Source of the DNA: Schmidtea polychroa
Taxonomy: Eukaryota
DNA length: 64,000 bases
NCBI GenBank assembly: GCA_044892525.1
Contig: CM097885.1
Span: 17,734,001-17,798,000 of the forward strand
Reading direction: 5' to 3'
Shown here: one piece after another, positions 37,036-55,976 of the stretch
Layout: the number at the start of each line of letters is the position of its first letter
Position numbering within the stretch: position 1 is the stretch's first letter
Position numbers and translations under genes: made by a program
Notes under the pieces: generated by a model
Told to the model about the DNA's origin: nothing
Seen by the model: the letters and a program-made list of their open reading frames with translations, nothing else
Databases searched by the model: none

Positions 37036-37142
37036 AGTAGATGGATTGGGCACCGCTGGCACAGGGCACCGCTAGCACAGTACCCCCCTCCCCCCGTCGG
37101 TAAGATTTTCAAAAATATTCTAAGTCTAAAAGTACATTTTTT

Positions 37143-37645
37143 TTCAAGGTCAAATTTAAACAAAGACATATGACTCATCAAGGTCATTTAAACAAAGACC
37201 ATGACTCATCAAGGTCATTTTCAAGGTCGTATGGCTCATACTATGACTCATCAAGGTCATTTTCAAGGTCATATGACTCGTCCGATGAGTCATAAAAATT
37301 TTCAAGGTCATTTAAACAAGGATCATGACTCATTCAAGGTCATTTTCAAGGTCATGTGACTCATTCAAGGTCATTTTCAAGGTCATATGACTCATTCAAG
37401 GTCATTTTCAAGGTCATATGACTCATTCAAGGTCATTCTCAAGGTCATATGACTCATACTATGACTCATCAAAAAATTTCCAAGGTCATATGACTCATAC
37501 TATGACTCATCAAAAAATTTCCAAGGTCATATGACTCATACTATGACTCATCAAAAATTTTCAAGGTCATTTTCAAGGTCATATGACTCATCCAAGGTCA
37601 TTCTCAAGGTCATATGAGTCATCGCGATGAGTCATCAAGGTCATA
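37143..37645 (+). repeat. Subterminal array of ATGACTCAT and TCAAGGTCA motifs (inverted copy ~55225-55862)
   Basis: Dozens of tgactcat and caaggtca units alternate with variable spacing. Confidence 0.9.
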
Positions 37646-38159
37646 TTATTATTTTTAAAAAATATTATTATTTTTATTATTATTTTTTCAAAATATTATT
37701 AAGTGTGCTAGCGGTGCCCTACTATTTGGCATGCCAAAAGTTATCGTTCCCATCATTTTATTTCATCGATCGATAGCTTGTTTTGAAGCTTGGTGCAAGA
37801 CCTTTCGAATGAGGTATAATGGTCATCACCATCATTAATATTGGCAAAGTTATTAACATTTTCCCGAGACCATTTTCAAGGTCATTTGACTATTTTATTA
37901 TTATTTTTTAAAATATTATTTTTTTTTCAAGGTCATTTATTTTTTCAAGGTCAAATTTTTTCAAGGTCAATTTTTTTTCAAGGTCAAATTTTTTTTCAAG
38001 GTCATATTTTAAAATTTAAATTTACAGAGTTCCCGCCAACGAACATTATTCAACGATAGCTCATTTGAAAGCCCAATCCAGGACCTTTCGATTGAGCCAT
38101 ATATCTCATTATTAACATTATTATTTCTAAAGATATTATTATTATTATAATTATTATTA

Positions 38160-51335: not shown

Positions 51336-51828
51336 TTACATGTATATAGTATGATATTCATTAATCAGTATTAAACAGGCTTGACGATTGCGAACATTCT
51401 TCTCGTGACACTTAGAACAAACAATTACGTGACCACACGGTAAATACAAAACCGAAACTTGATTTTCTTTACAAATTGAACAGGTTAAATACCTTTTCTT
51501 AACATCGTTCAGTTTTTCCGTTAGCTTATTTTCAATCAAGTCGGCTTTTGCTATCCATTCATAAATCAATCTACTATATCCCGGTTTCAACCTTAAATAC
51601 ATGCAACTCCAAAAGTAATTCATTCAGTGAATCGTCGTTTACCACTGTTTTTTCTAAATACATTAAATAACTAGATAACTTCAAAATGCATTTATCATAA
51701 TTAAATAAATCAATCAAATATTCAATAGAGGAATGTTTGAAAATTTTTAAAATATTTATGATTTGCTTATCACTGTAAGTATCATGATTATTTATAAAAT
51801 CTTCAACTGTGTTGTTGAAAAATTTCAA
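51336..51828 (-). pseudogene. Mirror copy of the RING-finger pseudogene
   Basis: Translation identical to 45423-45915. Confidence 0.7.
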
Positions 51829-54800
51829 TGAAATTTCAGAATAGGTTGGACTTAATTTTTCCTTATTTCTAGTAGGACTTCCTTGCTATAAGTGACATAT
51901 ATAAAAAATATTGACAAAATAATAAAGTTACCAAATGTGTTTTGTGATTTACACATTCATATTCAACAGTTTTACTTGTAGAAATCATCAGTAATAAATT
52001 TCTTAATAAATAAATTACTTTTGTTTTTACATTTATAAAAATTGAGATAGCCAATCAAATTAGAGTTTTCAAAATTTAGAAATTGTAACCATGGTTGAAC
52101 CTTCAAATGTCTAAGTAAGATCATATTGTATAACAATAATAATAAGCATGACTAGTAACCTTTCAACCTGTTGAGTGTGAGCAGTACCCATAGGGGGACA
52201 AAATATTTTGTCGGATAGACAAGGAGTATATAATAATAATAATAATAATATGACCTTGATGACTCATCGCGATGACTCATATGACCTTGAGAATGACCTT
52301 GGATGAGTCATGCGACCTTGAAAATGACAATAATAATATTTAATCATGAAAATATTGAAAATCGTGAAAATTATTAAAATGTTAAAAATCATGAAAATAT
52401 AGAAAATGTTGAAAATGAGGAAAATGTTCCTGAAAATGTTTAAAATCGTGAAAATATTGAAAATGATGAAAATGATGAAAATATTGAAAATGATGAAAAC
52501 GTTAAACATTATGAAAATGTTCCTGAAAATAATCATCAAATATTGAAAATCGTAAATTGATGCAGAAATTAAGTTTTATGAATATTTAAGTAAATAAAAA
52601 TAAAACATCGAAAATAAAATAATAAGAACTTCGCAAATAATAATAATATTAATAATAATAATAATAATAATAATAATAATAATAATAATAATAATAATAA
52701 TAATAATAATAATAATAATAATAATAATAATAATAATAATAATAATAATAATAATAATAGTAATAATAATAATAATAATAATAATAATAATAATAATAAT
52801 AATAATAATAATAATAATAATAATAATAATAATAATAATAATAATATTGATAAAAACTTTGAAAATAATTTGAAAATAATACTTTGAAAAATATTCGATG
52901 AAAAAATCCTGAAATAATCATGAAAATGTAGAAAATTATTAAAATAATCATGCAAATGATGAAAATGTTGAAAATCATGTAATTGACGTAGAAATAATAA
53001 ATATTTTATAAATATTTAAGTAAATAATAATAATGAAACTTCTAAATTAAAATAATAATTAGAACTTTCCAAATAATAATAAAAATAATAATAATAATAA
53101 TAATAATAATAATAATTCTTTGAAAATAATTCTTTAAAAATAATACTTTGAAAAATATTTGATGAAAATGATCCTGAAATAATCATGAAAATGCTGAAAA
53201 TCGTGAAAATGTTGAAAATCCTGAAAATGCTGAAAATCATGAAAATGTTGAAAATCGTGAAAATATTGAAAATGTAGAAAATTATGAAAATATTCATGCA
53301 AATGATGAAAATGTTGAAAATCATGAAATTGACGTAGAAATAAAGTTTTATGAATATTTGCAATAATAATTATAATAATAATAATAATAATAATAATAAT
53401 AATAATAATAATACAACTTTGTAAATAATAATAAAAGTAATAATAAGAACTGTTTGAAAATAAGCTAACGGAAATATTACTTTGAAAAATATTTGATGAA
53501 AATGTTCATGTAACTAATGAAAATGTTCCTGAAATAATAATGAAAATATTGAAAATGTAGAAAATTATGAAAATGTTAAAAATCCATAAAATATTAATAA
53601 TTATGAAAATCATGAAAATGTTGGAAATTATGAAAATATTGAAAATTATTAAAATAATCATGCAAATGATGAAAATGTTGAAAATCATGTAATTGAGGTA
53701 GAAATTAAGTTTTATGAATATTTGTAAATTATAATAATAATAATAATAAGAAGAATTTTCAAAATAACTTTGAAAATATTAATAATAATAATAATAATAA
53801 TAATAATAATAATAATAATGATAATAATAATAATAATAATGATAATAACAATAATAATAATAATATTAATAATAATAATAATAATAATAATAATAATAAT
53901 AATAATAATAATAATAATAATAATAATAATTTTGAAAATAACATCTTCCGCGCGGGCGTTATTATCTTTCCCAATAATAATAATAAATTAAATAATTACA
54001 TAATCGATAATTTAAACAAACGTAATCGATAATTAAAACAAAAAAAATAATATAATCAACGATTTAAACAAAATTAAATTATTACATAGTCGATAATTTA
54101 AACAAACATAATCGATAATTAAAACAAAAAAATGATATAATCAACGATTTAAACAAAACGAAATTATTATGTAATTGATAATTAAAACAAAAAAAATAAT
54201 ATAATCAACGATTTAAACAAAATAAATTATTAAGTAATTGATAATTAAAACAAAAAATAATAATATGACCTTGAAAATAATAATATTTTGAAAAGTAATA
54301 ATATGACCTTGAAAATAATAATATTTTGAAAAATAATAATATAACCTTGAAAATAATAATATTTTGAAAATTAATAATATGACCTTGAAAATAATAATAT
54401 TTTGAAAAATAATAATATGACCTTGAAAAAAAATAACGTAATCGATAATTAAAACAAAAAAATAATAGAATCAACGATTTAAACAAAATGAAATTATTAT
54501 GTAATTGATAATTAAAACAAAAAATATTATTATATAATTAACGATTTAAACAAAATGAAATTATTAAGTAATCGATAATTAAAACAAAAATAAAAATATT
54601 ATTATATAATCAACGATTTAAACAAAATTAAATTATTAAGTAATCGATAATTAAAACAAAAACAAAAATATTATTATATAATCAACGATTTAAACAAAAT
54701 TAAATTATTAAGTAATCGATAATTAAAACAAAAATAAAAATATTATCATATAATCAACGATTTAAAGAAAATTATTATTATTACGCAATATTTTGAAAAA

Positions 54801-55976
54801 TAATGATATGACCTTAAAAAAATAAAATAATCGAATGCGAGTTGTTGAGCGTGAGCAGTACCTTTGTGAGCATTACCCATGGGGGGACAAAATATTTTGT
54901 CGGATAGACTCAGAGTATATAGATTAATACTAATAATAATAATAATAATAATAATAATAATAATAATAATAATAATAATAATAATAATAATAATAATAAT
55001 AATAATAATAATAATAATAATAATAATAATAATAATAATAATAATAATAATAATAATAATAACAATAACAAGATATATAGCTCATTCGAAAGGTCTTGGA
55101 TTGAGCTTTAAAATGAGCTATCGATTATTATTTTTAGTTGGCGGGAATTTTGAAAAAATTAAAAATAAAATAATAATATTTTTAAAAATAATAATAAAAA
55201 TAATAATATTTTTTAAAAATAATAATATGACCTTGATGAGTCATTGCGATGACTCATATGACCTTGGGAATGACCTTGGATGAGTCATGTGCCCTTGAAA
55301 ATGTCCTTGGTGAGTCATAGGATGTCTCAGATGACCTTGAAAATGACCTTGAAAAATTTTGATGAGTCATAGTATGAGTCATGTGCCCTTGAAAATTTTT
55401 TGATGAGTCATAGTATGCGTCATATGACCTTGAGAATGACCTTGAATGAGTCATATGACCTTGAGAATGACCTTGATGAGTCATAGTATGAGTCATACGA
55501 CCTTGAAATGACCTTGATGAGTCATGGTCTTTGTTTAAATGACCTTGAAAATTTTTATGACTCACCTGATGAGTCATATGCCCTTGAAAATGACCTTGAT
55601 GAGTCATAGTATGAGTCGTACGACCTTGAAAATGACCTTGATGAGTCATGGTCTTTGTTTAAATGACCTTGAAAATTTTTTTTGACCTTGATGAGTCATA
55701 TTATGAGTCATATGACCTTGAAAATGACCTTGATGAGTCATAGCACGAGTCATGGTCTTTGTTTAAATGACCTTGAGAAATTTGATGAGTCATAGGATGA
55801 GTCATGGTCTTTGTTTCAATGACCTTGATGAGTCATATGTCTTTGTTTAAATTTGACCTTGAAAAAAATGTACTTTTAGACTTAGAATATTTTTGAAAAT
55901 CTTTTCGACGGGGGGGAGGGGGAGGGGGGTACTGTGCTAGCGGTGCCCTGTGCCAGCGGTGCCCAATCCATCTACT

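What the first reader, a model, noticed from the sequence alone, without database searches (positions are those of the whole stretch)
37036..55976. Giant ~19 kb palindromic element with Polinton-type protein-priming ends and no replication genes
Seen: both ends are reverse complements starting AGTAG. The inner arms (45021-48593 vs 48658-52230) are almost perfectly inverted; I spotted mismatches at 45032/52219, 45088/52163 and 47573/49678. The outer arms (~8 kb vs ~3.7 kb) share modules but differ in copy number. The only recognisable cargo is a broken RING gene, and there is no TSD. Known: Polinton ends are 5'-AG...CT-3' with short AGT-like repeats used for protein-primed initiation. Inference: this is a non-autonomous snap-back or defective Polinton-like replicon, i.e. 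the unfolded dimer of a molecule with one protein-primed end and one hairpin end, which a pPolB like that at 1060-5442 could replicate in trans.
Basis: partly seen in the sequence, partly recalled or inferred. Interest (0 to 1): 0.9.

Follow-up and report, generated by a model that had tools for sequence, protein, structure and literature searches.

The report
Palindromic gene-less Polinton derivative
This 19-kb stretch is a gene-less, internally mirror-imaged passenger copy of a very abundant virus-like Polinton (Maverick) transposon, and such mirror-imaged copies may be fossils of how these elements copy their DNA.

Summary
Every stated observation holds: a 59-nt perfect AGTAG terminal inverted repeat, inner arms differing at exactly the three named positions, unequal outer arms, a frameshifted RING remnant as the only cargo, and no target-site duplication (TSD).

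It is not a lone oddity. The terminus occurs 1350 times in this 781-Mb genome. Ten of ten other sampled copies have perfect 6-bp TSDs. Copies of about 19 kb carry pPolB, rve/chromo integrase, an A32-type ATPase and a likely double-jelly-roll capsid gene. So this is a non-autonomous Polinton/Maverick derivative.

Its palindromic core is shared by a subfamily: 187 arm markers, with 28 convergent and 0 divergent pairs among the first 100. That subfamily transposes as a unit; two sister copies have TSDs. This copy lacks a TSD because exactly 941 bp of the host LTR retrotransposon are missing at the site.

Its centre is the common centre minus two microhomology deletions. The pPolB at 1060-5442 is only 27% identical to the family's own, so it is an unlikely helper.

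A copy-back (snap-back) origin of the palindrome is plausible. An independent head-to-head pPolB palindrome with a TSD exists, head-to-head pPolB pairs are in excess (7:1:2:0), and the two arms evolve in concert. It is not proven. Reads could not verify this copy's centre.

The parts
36720..37035 (+). Left host flank, part of an LTR-retrotransposon family. It ends in GCTAAG.
   Evidence: 69 matches in the genome at 77-86% identity; an intact copy reads on past GCTAAG into sequence that is absent from the window.
37036..37094 (+). Left terminus: 59-nt perfect terminal inverted repeat starting AGTAG.
   Evidence: The border is sharp in 30 of 30 genomic loci. The terminus has 1350 genomic matches and 0 control matches.
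37140..37701 (+). Left subterminal array of 31/42-nt repeats carrying the TCAAGGTCAT and ATGACTCAT motifs. This is the outer part of the family TIR.
   Evidence: 46 of the window's 48 TCAAGGTCAT and 41 of its 49 ATGACTCAT lie inside the element (expected 0.18 and 0.47). It matches the TIRs of full-length copies at 75-89%.
37702..44907 (+). Left AT-rich satellite-like filler (9-18% GC) with a tandem duplication of a 2.1-2.3-kb unit.
   Evidence: 38100-40369 = 40204-42486 at 97.8%.
44908..45075 (+). Inner part of the family TIR in the left arm. Its mirror copy lies at about 52176-52343.
   Evidence: 91-96% identity to the inner TIR of the full-length copies E2, E4, E6, E8 and E9.
45001..48593 (+). 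Left arm of the near-perfect inner palindrome.
   Evidence: 3590 of 3593 positions complementary to 48658-52250.
45333..45930 (+). Frameshifted RING-finger gene remnant in the left arm. It is inverted relative to its orientation in full-length copies.
   Evidence: zf-C3HC4_3, E 5.5e-10; tblastx shows two segments in different frames, 86-87% identical to the 182-aa RING frame of a full-length copy. The DNA matches E4 1987-1274 in reverse orientation.
46948..47068 (+). Second copy of the ~80-nt TIR inner-edge motif, with a 29-nt tandem repeat. The non-coding palindrome core starts here.
48594..48657 (.). 64-nt spacer. It consists of 11 nt of continuing arm plus a 60-nt piece that lies about 450 nt deeper in the common centre. 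The junctions show 4-nt and 3-nt microhomology.
   Evidence: compared with the common centre (C2c), positions 1806-3080 and 3137-3592 are deleted.
48658..52250 (-). Right arm of the near-perfect inner palindrome.
51321..51918 (-). Mirror copy of the frameshifted RING remnant.
   Evidence: 51336-52075 matches E2 1086-1793 at 88%. The position follows from the palindrome.
52801..55226 (-). Right AT-rich satellite-like filler: one unit, 74-78% like the left units.
55227..55917 (-). Right subterminal motif array (outer TIR).
55918..55976 (-). Right terminus: 59-nt perfect inverted copy of the left terminus.
55977..56400 (+). Right host flank, from the same LTR-retrotransposon family and in the same orientation as the left flank. 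It starts with ACCCTA.
   Evidence: 40 matches at 87-97%; in an intact copy this point lies 941 bp downstream of the left-flank end.

Best explanation
The element is a non-autonomous, internally palindromic derivative of a very abundant and young Polinton/Maverick (adintovirus-like) family in this genome.

It keeps only what must act in cis: the 59-nt AGTAG termini, the subterminal arrays of TCAAGGTCAT/ATGACTCAT repeats, and the inner TIR part. It carries no working gene. It therefore depends in trans on the integrase of the full-length family members, and presumably on their protein-primed polymerase.

It belongs to a subfamily whose palindromic, non-coding core with RING remnants spread by transposition as a unit.

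Inferred: the ancestral palindrome arose by copy-back (snap-back) template switching during strand-displacement replication of the RING/pPolB-side end of a linear extrachromosomal copy, and this was followed by integration.

Shown for this copy: after the subfamily formed, it lost two pieces of the palindrome centre by microhomology deletions, gained a tandem duplication of filler in the left arm, and sits where 941 bp of the host LTR retrotransposon are missing. That missing piece is why it has no TSD. Two routes would explain the loss: recombination between two neighbouring insertions, or an integrase-mediated adjacent deletion or non-concerted end joining. The data do not choose between them.

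The confidence of 0.75 is for the whole statement. Taken separately, 'non-autonomous member of this Polinton family' is about 0.9 and 'copy-back origin of the palindrome' about 0.5.
For: Family identity:
- The terminus has 681+669 genomic matches and 0 control matches.
- The border is sharp in 30 of 30 loci.
- I chose 10 of the 33 convergent terminus pairs among the first 100 listed termini (seven of 18.5-19.8 kb, three shorter). All 10 have perfect 6-bp TSDs.
- In the full-length copy that was scanned, the open frames give a 1351-aa pPolB homologue with the polymerase B and C motifs aligned (E 3e-89), an rve+chromo integrase (E 1.2e-5), a Pox_A32-type ATPase (30.4 bits, cut-off 22.8) and a RING protein.
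- Its 426-aa frame resembles DJR-like capsid clusters (0.97).

Subfamily:
- The arm 46000-48300 recurs at 98-100% identity in at least 40 places.
- The arm-specific 51-mer has 97+90 matches and 0 control matches.
- Among the first 100 markers there are 28 convergent pairs, 0 divergent pairs and 44 solo markers. The spacing 3858 recurs four times.
- Sister copies have TSDs: GATGTA for a symmetric 17.4-kb copy and TTTAAA for E7.

Centre: maps this copy's centre onto the common centre minus two deletions.

Missing TSD: in at least 10 other copies of the host retrotransposon the two flank points lie 811-949 bp apart. In one copy read at both points they are exactly 941 bp apart.

Copy-back origin:
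- E9 is a separate palindrome. Two RING+pPolB ends lie head to head around a 282-nt loop, with a TSD. Its junction is unique in the genome.
- Among the first 100 pPolB markers, adjacent pairs under 30 kb are +- 7, ++ 1, -+ 2, -- 0.
- Both arms of this element carry the RING remnant, which lies next to pPolB in full-length copies.
- Of 11 variable columns among the six arms of three copies, 6 are private to one copy yet present in both of its arms.
- The strand-displacing pPolB of phage phi29 makes mostly inverted chimeras with intervening deletions in vitro (PMC1855051, abstract read).
Against: - This copy has no TSD, so integration as a unit is shown only for sister copies.
- The integrase Pfam hit is below the gathering score. 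The capsid assignment is a language-model lead, not an alignment.
- The palindrome core beyond the RING remnant shares only an ~80-nt TIR motif with full-length copies. It therefore cannot be traced to a parental end.
- E9's arms differ by 24 mismatches and 26 gaps in 4989 nt. They are either old or come from two parents.
- Six of the 7 head-to-head pPolB pairs were seen only as coordinates, and the listing shows no terminus at the places expected for them.
- Mirrored substitutions are equally well explained by arm-to-arm gene conversion in the chromosome.
- One other pair (C1:49868936-49881180) has flanks that are exact reverse complements over 40 nt and no TSD. Palindromes that reach into host DNA, whether real or from assembly, therefore exist in this assembly.
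- Extra terminal AGT is not clearly enriched (19 against 7, with about 24 expected from base composition).
- This copy's unique centre could not be checked with reads.
Confidence: 0.75

Rival explanations
1. The palindromes arose in the chromosome, not during element replication. Possible routes are fold-back repair of a break, fork template switching at the inverted repeats, or two insertions in inverted orientation followed by deletions. The outer termini then mobilised the composite, and arm-to-arm gene conversion keeps the arms alike.
For: Mirrored private substitutions are what gene conversion produces. One locus has inverted host flanks, which shows chromosome-level or assembly-level inverted duplication around an element. 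The centres vary widely in length, 1645-4473 nt between markers, as expected for unstable chromosomal palindromes.
Against: In the palindromes read in sequence, the ends facing outward are the RING/pPolB-side ends: in E9, and by the RING remnants in this subfamily. In the first 100 pPolB markers the head-to-head class outnumbers the other three together, 7 against 3. Random chromosomal events would not favour one end. E9's junction needs one switch under copy-back but at least two deletions under the composite model. No termini lie at the junctions.
Confidence: 0.3
2. One reading: this copy is itself the unfolded dimer of a molecule with one protein-primed end and one hairpin end, and the pPolB gene at 1060-5442 replicates it in trans.
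For: The inner arms are 3590/3593 identical around a short spacer. The termini are of Polinton type.
Against: The outer arms are 7.97 against 3.73 kb and only 74-78% alike. The core is shared with at least 28 other palindromic loci. The centre derives from the common centre by two deletions. The window's pPolB is 27% identical to the family's own, and the only copies of this terminus in the window are the element's own two ends.
Confidence: 0.05
3. The inner palindrome of this copy is an assembly artefact, from a fold-back or chimeric long read.
For: Near-perfect palindromes are a known artefact class (general knowledge). This copy's centre variant is unique in the genome. The public read sets gave only ~60-nt unitigs that cannot bridge it. 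Contig C36 and C1:49868936 show suspicious palindromes.
Against: The same arms in the same convergent arrangement occur at at least 28 loci. Some have TSDs. The spacer is made of family sequence joined at microhomologies, not adapter-like sequence. The flanks are collinear pieces of one host element, not inverted.
Confidence: 0.05
4. It is a foldback-type or other cut-and-paste DNA transposon unrelated to Polintons.
For: It has long inverted ends built of short tandem repeats with variable copy number and no genes, much like Drosophila FB elements (recalled).
Against: The identical terminus caps pPolB/integrase/ATPase elements. The TSD is 6 bp in 11 of the 12 other pairs read at both ends. FB elements have 9 bp (recalled).
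Confidence: 0.02

Closest known systems
Polinton/Maverick elements (adintovirus-like integrated viruses of animals)
   Same: 5'-AG...CT-3' termini, long TIRs and a 6-bp TSD in sister copies. Full-length relatives of 18.5-19.8 kb carry pPolB, rve/chromo integrase, an A32-type ATPase and a likely DJR capsid protein.
   Different: This copy has none of the genes, is internally palindromic, is filled with satellite-like DNA and lacks a TSD. The family's copy number is unusually high for an animal genome as far as I recall: 1350 termini and 1817 pPolB markers.
Copy-back / snap-back defective genomes of protein-primed linear replicons (adenovirus incomplete particles with inverted left-end duplications; hairpin and palindromic derivatives of yeast linear plasmid pGKL1). 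Recalled, not looked up.
   Same: Two copies of the same genome end in inverted orientation around a short unique loop, with loss of most genes and dependence on a helper. E9 and this subfamily show that layout.
   Different: Those are free replicating molecules observed biochemically. Here only integrated copies are seen, and the extrachromosomal stage is inferred.
Inverted chimeras made by phi29 DNA polymerase in multiple displacement amplification (PMC1855051, abstract read)
   Same: A strand-displacing pPolB yields inverted sequences with intervening deletions, joined at 2-21-nt complementarities. E9 is an inverted join with a 263-282-nt offset.
   Different: That is an in-vitro artefact of a phage enzyme. 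No enzyme of this family has been assayed.
Foldback (FB) elements of Drosophila (recalled)
   Same: Long inverted ends composed of short tandem repeats that vary in number between the two ends; often no coding capacity.
   Different: FB elements have 9-bp TSDs and a different transposase partner (recalled). Here the TSD is 6 bp and the partners are Polinton genes.
Large chromosomal palindromes with arm-to-arm gene conversion, such as primate Y-chromosome palindromes (recalled)
   Same: Arms more than 99.9% alike around a unique spacer. Substitutions are shared by both arms of one copy.
   Different: Those are single-locus structures. This is a mobile, multi-copy unit with transposon termini.

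Membership tests
Polinton/Maverick | [quoted passage not shown] | tested here: not met
   There is no such frame in 37036-55976, and tblastx against a full-length copy finds only the RING and TIR parts. It is met by relatives with the same termini: a 1351-aa frame that aligns with the window's Pfam-positive pPolB at E 3e-89. This copy is therefore a non-autonomous derivative, not an autonomous member.
Polinton/Maverick | Retrovirus-like (rve) integrase gene | tested here: not met
   Absent from this copy. The full-length relative scanned has a 384-aa frame with rve (E 1.2e-5, 25.9 bits, below the 32.6 cut-off) and Chromo (E 3e-4).
Polinton/Maverick | Terminal inverted repeats with 5'-AG...CT-3' ends | tested here: met
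   A 59-nt perfect TIR starting AGTAG and ending CTACT. The same border is seen in 30 of 30 loci.
Polinton/Maverick | 6-bp target-site duplication | tested here: not met
   This copy has GCTAAG against ACCCTA, with 941 bp of target missing. Relatives: 10 of 10 and 1 of 2 have perfect 6-bp TSDs. Two further pairs 46-47 kb apart fit as well: CACGAC, and CCGGTT with a 3-nt offset.
Polinton/Maverick | Virion module: DJR major capsid protein, minor capsid protein, packaging ATPase, maturation protease | tested here: inconclusive
   None is present in this copy. In the full-length relative scanned: ATPase Pox_A32, 30.4 bits, above the cut-off; a 426-aa frame near DJR-like clusters, 0.97; a 360-aa frame near unnamed viral/arthropod clusters. 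No protease was identified and no structures were predicted.
Copy-back (snap-back) defective genome of a protein-primed replicon | Both ends derive from the same end of the parent genome, in inverted orientation around a short unique loop | tested here: inconclusive
   Met for E9: two RING+pPolB ends and a 282-nt loop. For this copy, both arms carry the RING remnant that lies next to pPolB in full-length copies, but the rest of the core has no detectable parent.
Copy-back (snap-back) defective genome of a protein-primed replicon | Exists and replicates as free linear or hairpin DNA with terminal protein | not testable with these tools
   Only an assembled genome and unitigs of public runs were available.
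Foldback (FB) elements | 9-bp TSD and FB-type ends (recalled definition) | tested here: not met
   The family TSD is 6 bp, and the ends are shared with Polinton-gene elements.

The most novel reading that the evidence does not exclude
This genome may hold a fossil record of Polinton replication. Under this reading, the palindromic copies are integrated copy-back defective genomes made during protein-primed strand-displacement synthesis of free linear DNA. They are biased to the RING/pPolB-side end because a cis signal (origin or packaging site) lies there. The arms stay near-identical because each replication round regenerates the palindrome from one arm through a hairpin monomer, not only through chromosomal gene conversion. 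That would be the first sequence-level evidence for the long-postulated extrachromosomal replication cycle of animal Polintons. It would also give a defined helper-dependent 'defective interfering' partner for it.
Probability: 0.35. Interest if true: 0.8.

Novelty: new variant of a known kind. Interest (0 to 1): 0.6.

Why it matters
How Polintons/Mavericks replicate and move has been inferred almost wholly from their gene content. A young family with more than a thousand near-identical termini offers a concrete system for observation. It includes gene-less palindromic passengers that still integrate with 6-bp TSDs, and recurrent head-to-head polymerase-end palindromes. Three questions become testable:
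- Do free linear or hairpin forms exist?
- Which end carries the cis signals?
- Are palindromic arms renewed by replication or by gene conversion?

For annotation, the result shows that a 'giant orphan palindrome' can be resolved into an ordinary family member by a genome-wide terminus search. It also shows that a missing TSD can come from a local target deletion.

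Tried and rejected
As a result only 12 other terminus pairs were read at both ends, and only E9 of the 7 head-to-head pPolB pairs was read in sequence.
2. Public reads: the four runs gave only ~60-nt unitigs for this repeat. Loose ends at 48604 and 48660 show the common-form continuations, but nothing bridges this copy's centre. 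This gives no verdict on the assembly of the centre.
3. Terminal AGT-repeat variation as a slide-back signature: 19 AGT-prefixed termini against 7 TGA-prefixed ones. About 24 are expected from base composition (my estimate), so there is no clear enrichment. One pair (L030/L029) fits a 6-bp TSD only with an extra AGT.
4. Target-site preference: 29 distinct flanks show no clear consensus.
5. Search for a parent of the palindrome core in full-length copies by blastn and tblastx: only the RING region and the ~80-nt TIR inner-edge motif match.
6. Rfam scan of 36000-57000: no family. PDB sequence search with the family pPolB: no hit.
7. TIRs for the second Polinton (pPolB at 1060-5442) were sought in 1-37000; only microsatellites came up.
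8. Earlier findings of this scan: none for this genome.
9. Literature:
   - No paper holds Polinton, Maverick and snap-back together. The 15 top-ranked of 228 papers all have 0 occurrences of snap-back.
   - 16 papers hold polinton + non-autonomous + palindrom, none in title or abstract, and I did not read them.
   - The phrases 'non-autonomous/defective Polinton/Maverick' occur in 4 papers. The one passage I read (PMC5499653) refers to Tlr1 elements.
   - PMC10748475 has no mention of palindromes, hairpins or non-autonomous copies (term search only).
   - Repbase entries for non-autonomous Polintons may exist (recalled). They could not be checked.

Full report
**1. Observation**

- The element spans 37036-55976 (18,941 bp). 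Its ends are perfect reverse complements for 59 nt and begin AGTAG.
- The inner arms 45001-48593 and 48658-52250 differ at exactly the three named positions, around a 64-nt spacer.
- Inverted similarity continues at 98% to 44436/52800.
- Beyond that the arms are unequal, 7.97 against 3.73 kb. They consist of AT-rich satellite-like DNA (9-18% GC).
- The left arm holds a 2.1-2.3-kb unit twice (97.8%) plus partial copies. The right arm holds one unit only 74-78% like them.
- The one coding remnant is a RING finger (zf-C3HC4_3) split over two frames, once per arm.
- No Rfam family is present.
- The flanks GCTAAG and ACCCTA are not a TSD.

**2. The terminus belongs to a huge, young family**
- The window lies in a 781-Mb assembly.
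- The 51-nt terminus, allowing up to 2 mismatches, occurs 681 times forward and 669 times reverse. The reversed control gives 0.
- In 30 of 30 fetched loci the similarity stops exactly at AGTAG, and the flanks differ, apart from one duplicated locus.
- Among the first 100 listed termini, 33 form convergent pairs. Their sizes peak at 18-20 kb.
- I fetched 10 of these 33 pairs: seven of 18.5-19.8 kb and three shorter. All 10 have perfect 6-bp TSDs.

**3. Full-length relatives are Polintons**
- The 18.5-19.8-kb copies have TIRs of about 0.7-1.3 kb and a conserved set of long open frames.
- I scanned the frames of one such copy. They gave:
  - a RING protein;
  - a 1351-aa frame;
  - a 384-aa frame with rve (E 1.2e-5, below Pfam's cut-off) and Chromo;
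  - a 222-aa Pox_A32-type ATPase (above cut-off);
  - a 154-aa TBP-domain protein.
- The 1351-aa frame aligns over 1143 residues with the Pfam-positive pPolB of window 1060-5442, including the NSxYGK and DTDS motifs. Identity is only 27% (E 3e-89).
- The 426-aa frame lies next to 'double jelly roll-like' clusters in the protein atlas (0.97), which is a lead and not an alignment.
- A pPolB-specific 40-mer occurs 906+911 times, with 0 in the control.
- Of the 30 terminus loci, 25 continue as a full-length left end (12) or right end (13). Two continue like this element, one of them being the element itself. Three are unclear.
The cognate genes are elsewhere and plentiful.

**4. This copy belongs to a palindromic, gene-less subfamily**
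- Against full-length copies it matches only in the TIR, in the inner TIR part (44908-45075) and in the RING region (45159-45918, 88-91%, inverted relative to the TIR). The rest of the arm has no detectable parent.
- The arm is nevertheless multi-copy. 46000-48300 recurs at 98-100% identity in at least 40 places, mostly as inverted pairs.
- An arm-specific 51-mer occurs 97+90 times, with 0 in the control.
- Among the first 100 markers, 28 form convergent pairs under 10 kb apart, none are divergent and 44 are solo. Spacings run 1645-4473 nt, plus one of 8299. The spacing 3858 occurs four times and 4252 twice. This copy's 2363 is unique among them.
- A symmetric 17.4-kb sister copy, with 5136 and 5148 nt from the termini to the markers, has the TSD GATGTA.
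- E7, a sister with one truncated arm, has the TSD TTTAAA.
- The palindromic unit therefore transposes as a whole, using functions supplied in trans.

**5. The centre**
- In the common form the arms run 556 nt further and enclose a 663-nt unique centre (99.8% arm identity).
- This copy's centre equals that form minus two segments, joined at 4-nt and 3-nt microhomologies. The 64-nt 'spacer' is 11 nt of arm plus a 60-nt piece from deeper in the opposite arm.
- This exact variant occurs only here.
- Public read sets gave only ~60-nt unitigs and cannot confirm or refute it.

**6. Why there is no TSD**
- Both flanks belong to one LTR-retrotransposon family and have the same orientation. In at least 10 other copies the two flank points lie 811-949 bp apart.
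- One intact copy, read at both points, shows that the element replaces exactly 941 bp between ...GCTAAG and ACCCTA....
- Two explanations fit. Two nearby insertions may have recombined. Alternatively a single insertion was followed by a deletion flush with one terminus, by intramolecular attack or non-concerted end joining. I cannot tell them apart.

**7. Origin of the palindrome (inferred)**
- E9 (11.9 kb, TSD GACCTA) is an independent palindrome. A RING+pPolB end runs inward to a point near the start of pPolB, then turns back 263-282 nt earlier on the opposite strand. Its junction is unique in the genome.
- Among the first 100 pPolB markers, adjacent pairs closer than 30 kb are +- 7 (2.7-21.9 kb), ++ 1, -+ 2, -- 0. 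The +- class, with the pPolB-side ends facing outward, is too closely spaced for two complete elements.
- Six of these seven were seen only as coordinates, and the listing shows no terminus at the places expected for them.
- Both arms of this element carry the RING remnant, which lies next to pPolB in full-length copies.
- This one-end bias and the inverted-join-with-offset layout are what copy-back template switching by a strand-displacing polymerase gives. phi29 polymerase does this in vitro (PMC1855051, abstract). Adenovirus incomplete particles and pGKL1 hairpin plasmids are similar (recalled).
- The arms evolve in concert. In a 1596-nt stretch, within-copy arm differences are 1, 2 and 2, against 1-9 between copies. 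Of 11 variable columns, 6 are private to one copy yet present in both of its arms. Either gene conversion or regeneration of the palindrome from one arm would explain this.

**8. Against, and limits**
- The chromosomal-origin rival is not excluded.
- One other pair has exactly inverted 40-nt host flanks and no TSD.
- An unplaced contig is a 3.6-kb perfect palindrome.
- E9's arms are only 98.7% alike.
- Extra terminal AGT is not clearly enriched.
- The integrase and capsid assignments are weak.

**9. Comparison and novelty**
- It works like a helper-dependent defective genome of a Polinton. As a family member it passes on termini and fails on genes and on its own TSD, so I file it as a non-autonomous derivative.
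- In the searched library I found no description of palindromic or snap-back Polinton derivatives. Repbase could not be checked.
- Verdict: a real feature and a new variant of a known kind. Interest is moderate to high because of what the family as a whole may reveal about Polinton replication.

Noticed in passing
window 1060-5442 (-): A 1460-aa pPolB (DNA_pol_B_2, E 1.5e-13) with an N-terminal C2H2 zf-jaz finger. It is only 27% identical to the pPolB of the AGTAG family, so a second Polinton lineage lies in the same window. No TIRs were found for it within 1-37000.
   Followed up: partly
window 31638-31921 (also 30032, 32500): A small cluster of the subterminal motifs ATGACTCAT (6 in 31638-31921) and TCAAGGTCAT (31674) outside the element. 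It may be a fragment of a related TIR.
   Followed up: no
L038:5099-5560 (full-length copy): Full-length family members carry a 154-aa frame with a TATA-binding-protein domain (PF00352, E 1.2e-15), an unusual cargo for a Polinton.
   Followed up: no
G000:C1:49868936-49881180 (L062, L063): A terminus pair whose 40-nt host flanks are exact reverse complements of each other, with no TSD. The inverted duplication runs into host DNA. Three same-strand termini lie just upstream (49861638, 49864325, 49868936). This is either a real rearrangement or an assembly artefact.
   Followed up: partly
G000:C1:8751764, 8771406, 8791112: Three termini on the same strand spaced 19.6 and 19.7 kb apart, with no opposite terminus listed between them. 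They may be a tandem array of elements or a segmental triplication.
   Followed up: no
G000:C2:86081029-86127342 and C2:78562573-78609775 (L028/L027, L030/L029): Two terminus pairs 46-47 kb apart with matching 6-bp flanks: CACGAC, and CCGGTT if the left end carries an extra AGT. The L028/L027 pair has a full-length right end and a full-length left end. The elements are far larger than usual, perhaps through nested insertions.
   Followed up: no
L053 = G000:C36:362503-366134: An unplaced contig holds a 3632-nt stretch that is its own reverse complement at 99.9%, with no evident spacer. It is 83% similar to this element's core, so it is a second palindromic subfamily or an artefact.
   Followed up: no
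window 56100-59152 and 60476-63999; 15221-16658: Ty3/gypsy-type retrotransposon pieces (aspartyl protease, RT, RNase H, integrase; a DUF7041 gag-like frame) surround the element. The element sits inside one of them.
   Followed up: partly
window 22534-23169 (-): A 211-aa frame with a GIY-YIG nuclease domain (E 8e-6).
   Followed up: no
window:1060-5442 and L037:2622-6674: In their N-terminal halves, both pPolB proteins share a conserved block around 'N-D/K-x-K-C-F' before the polymerase part (alignment). This looks like a cysteine-protease-type motif (recalled resemblance, not tested).
   Followed up: no
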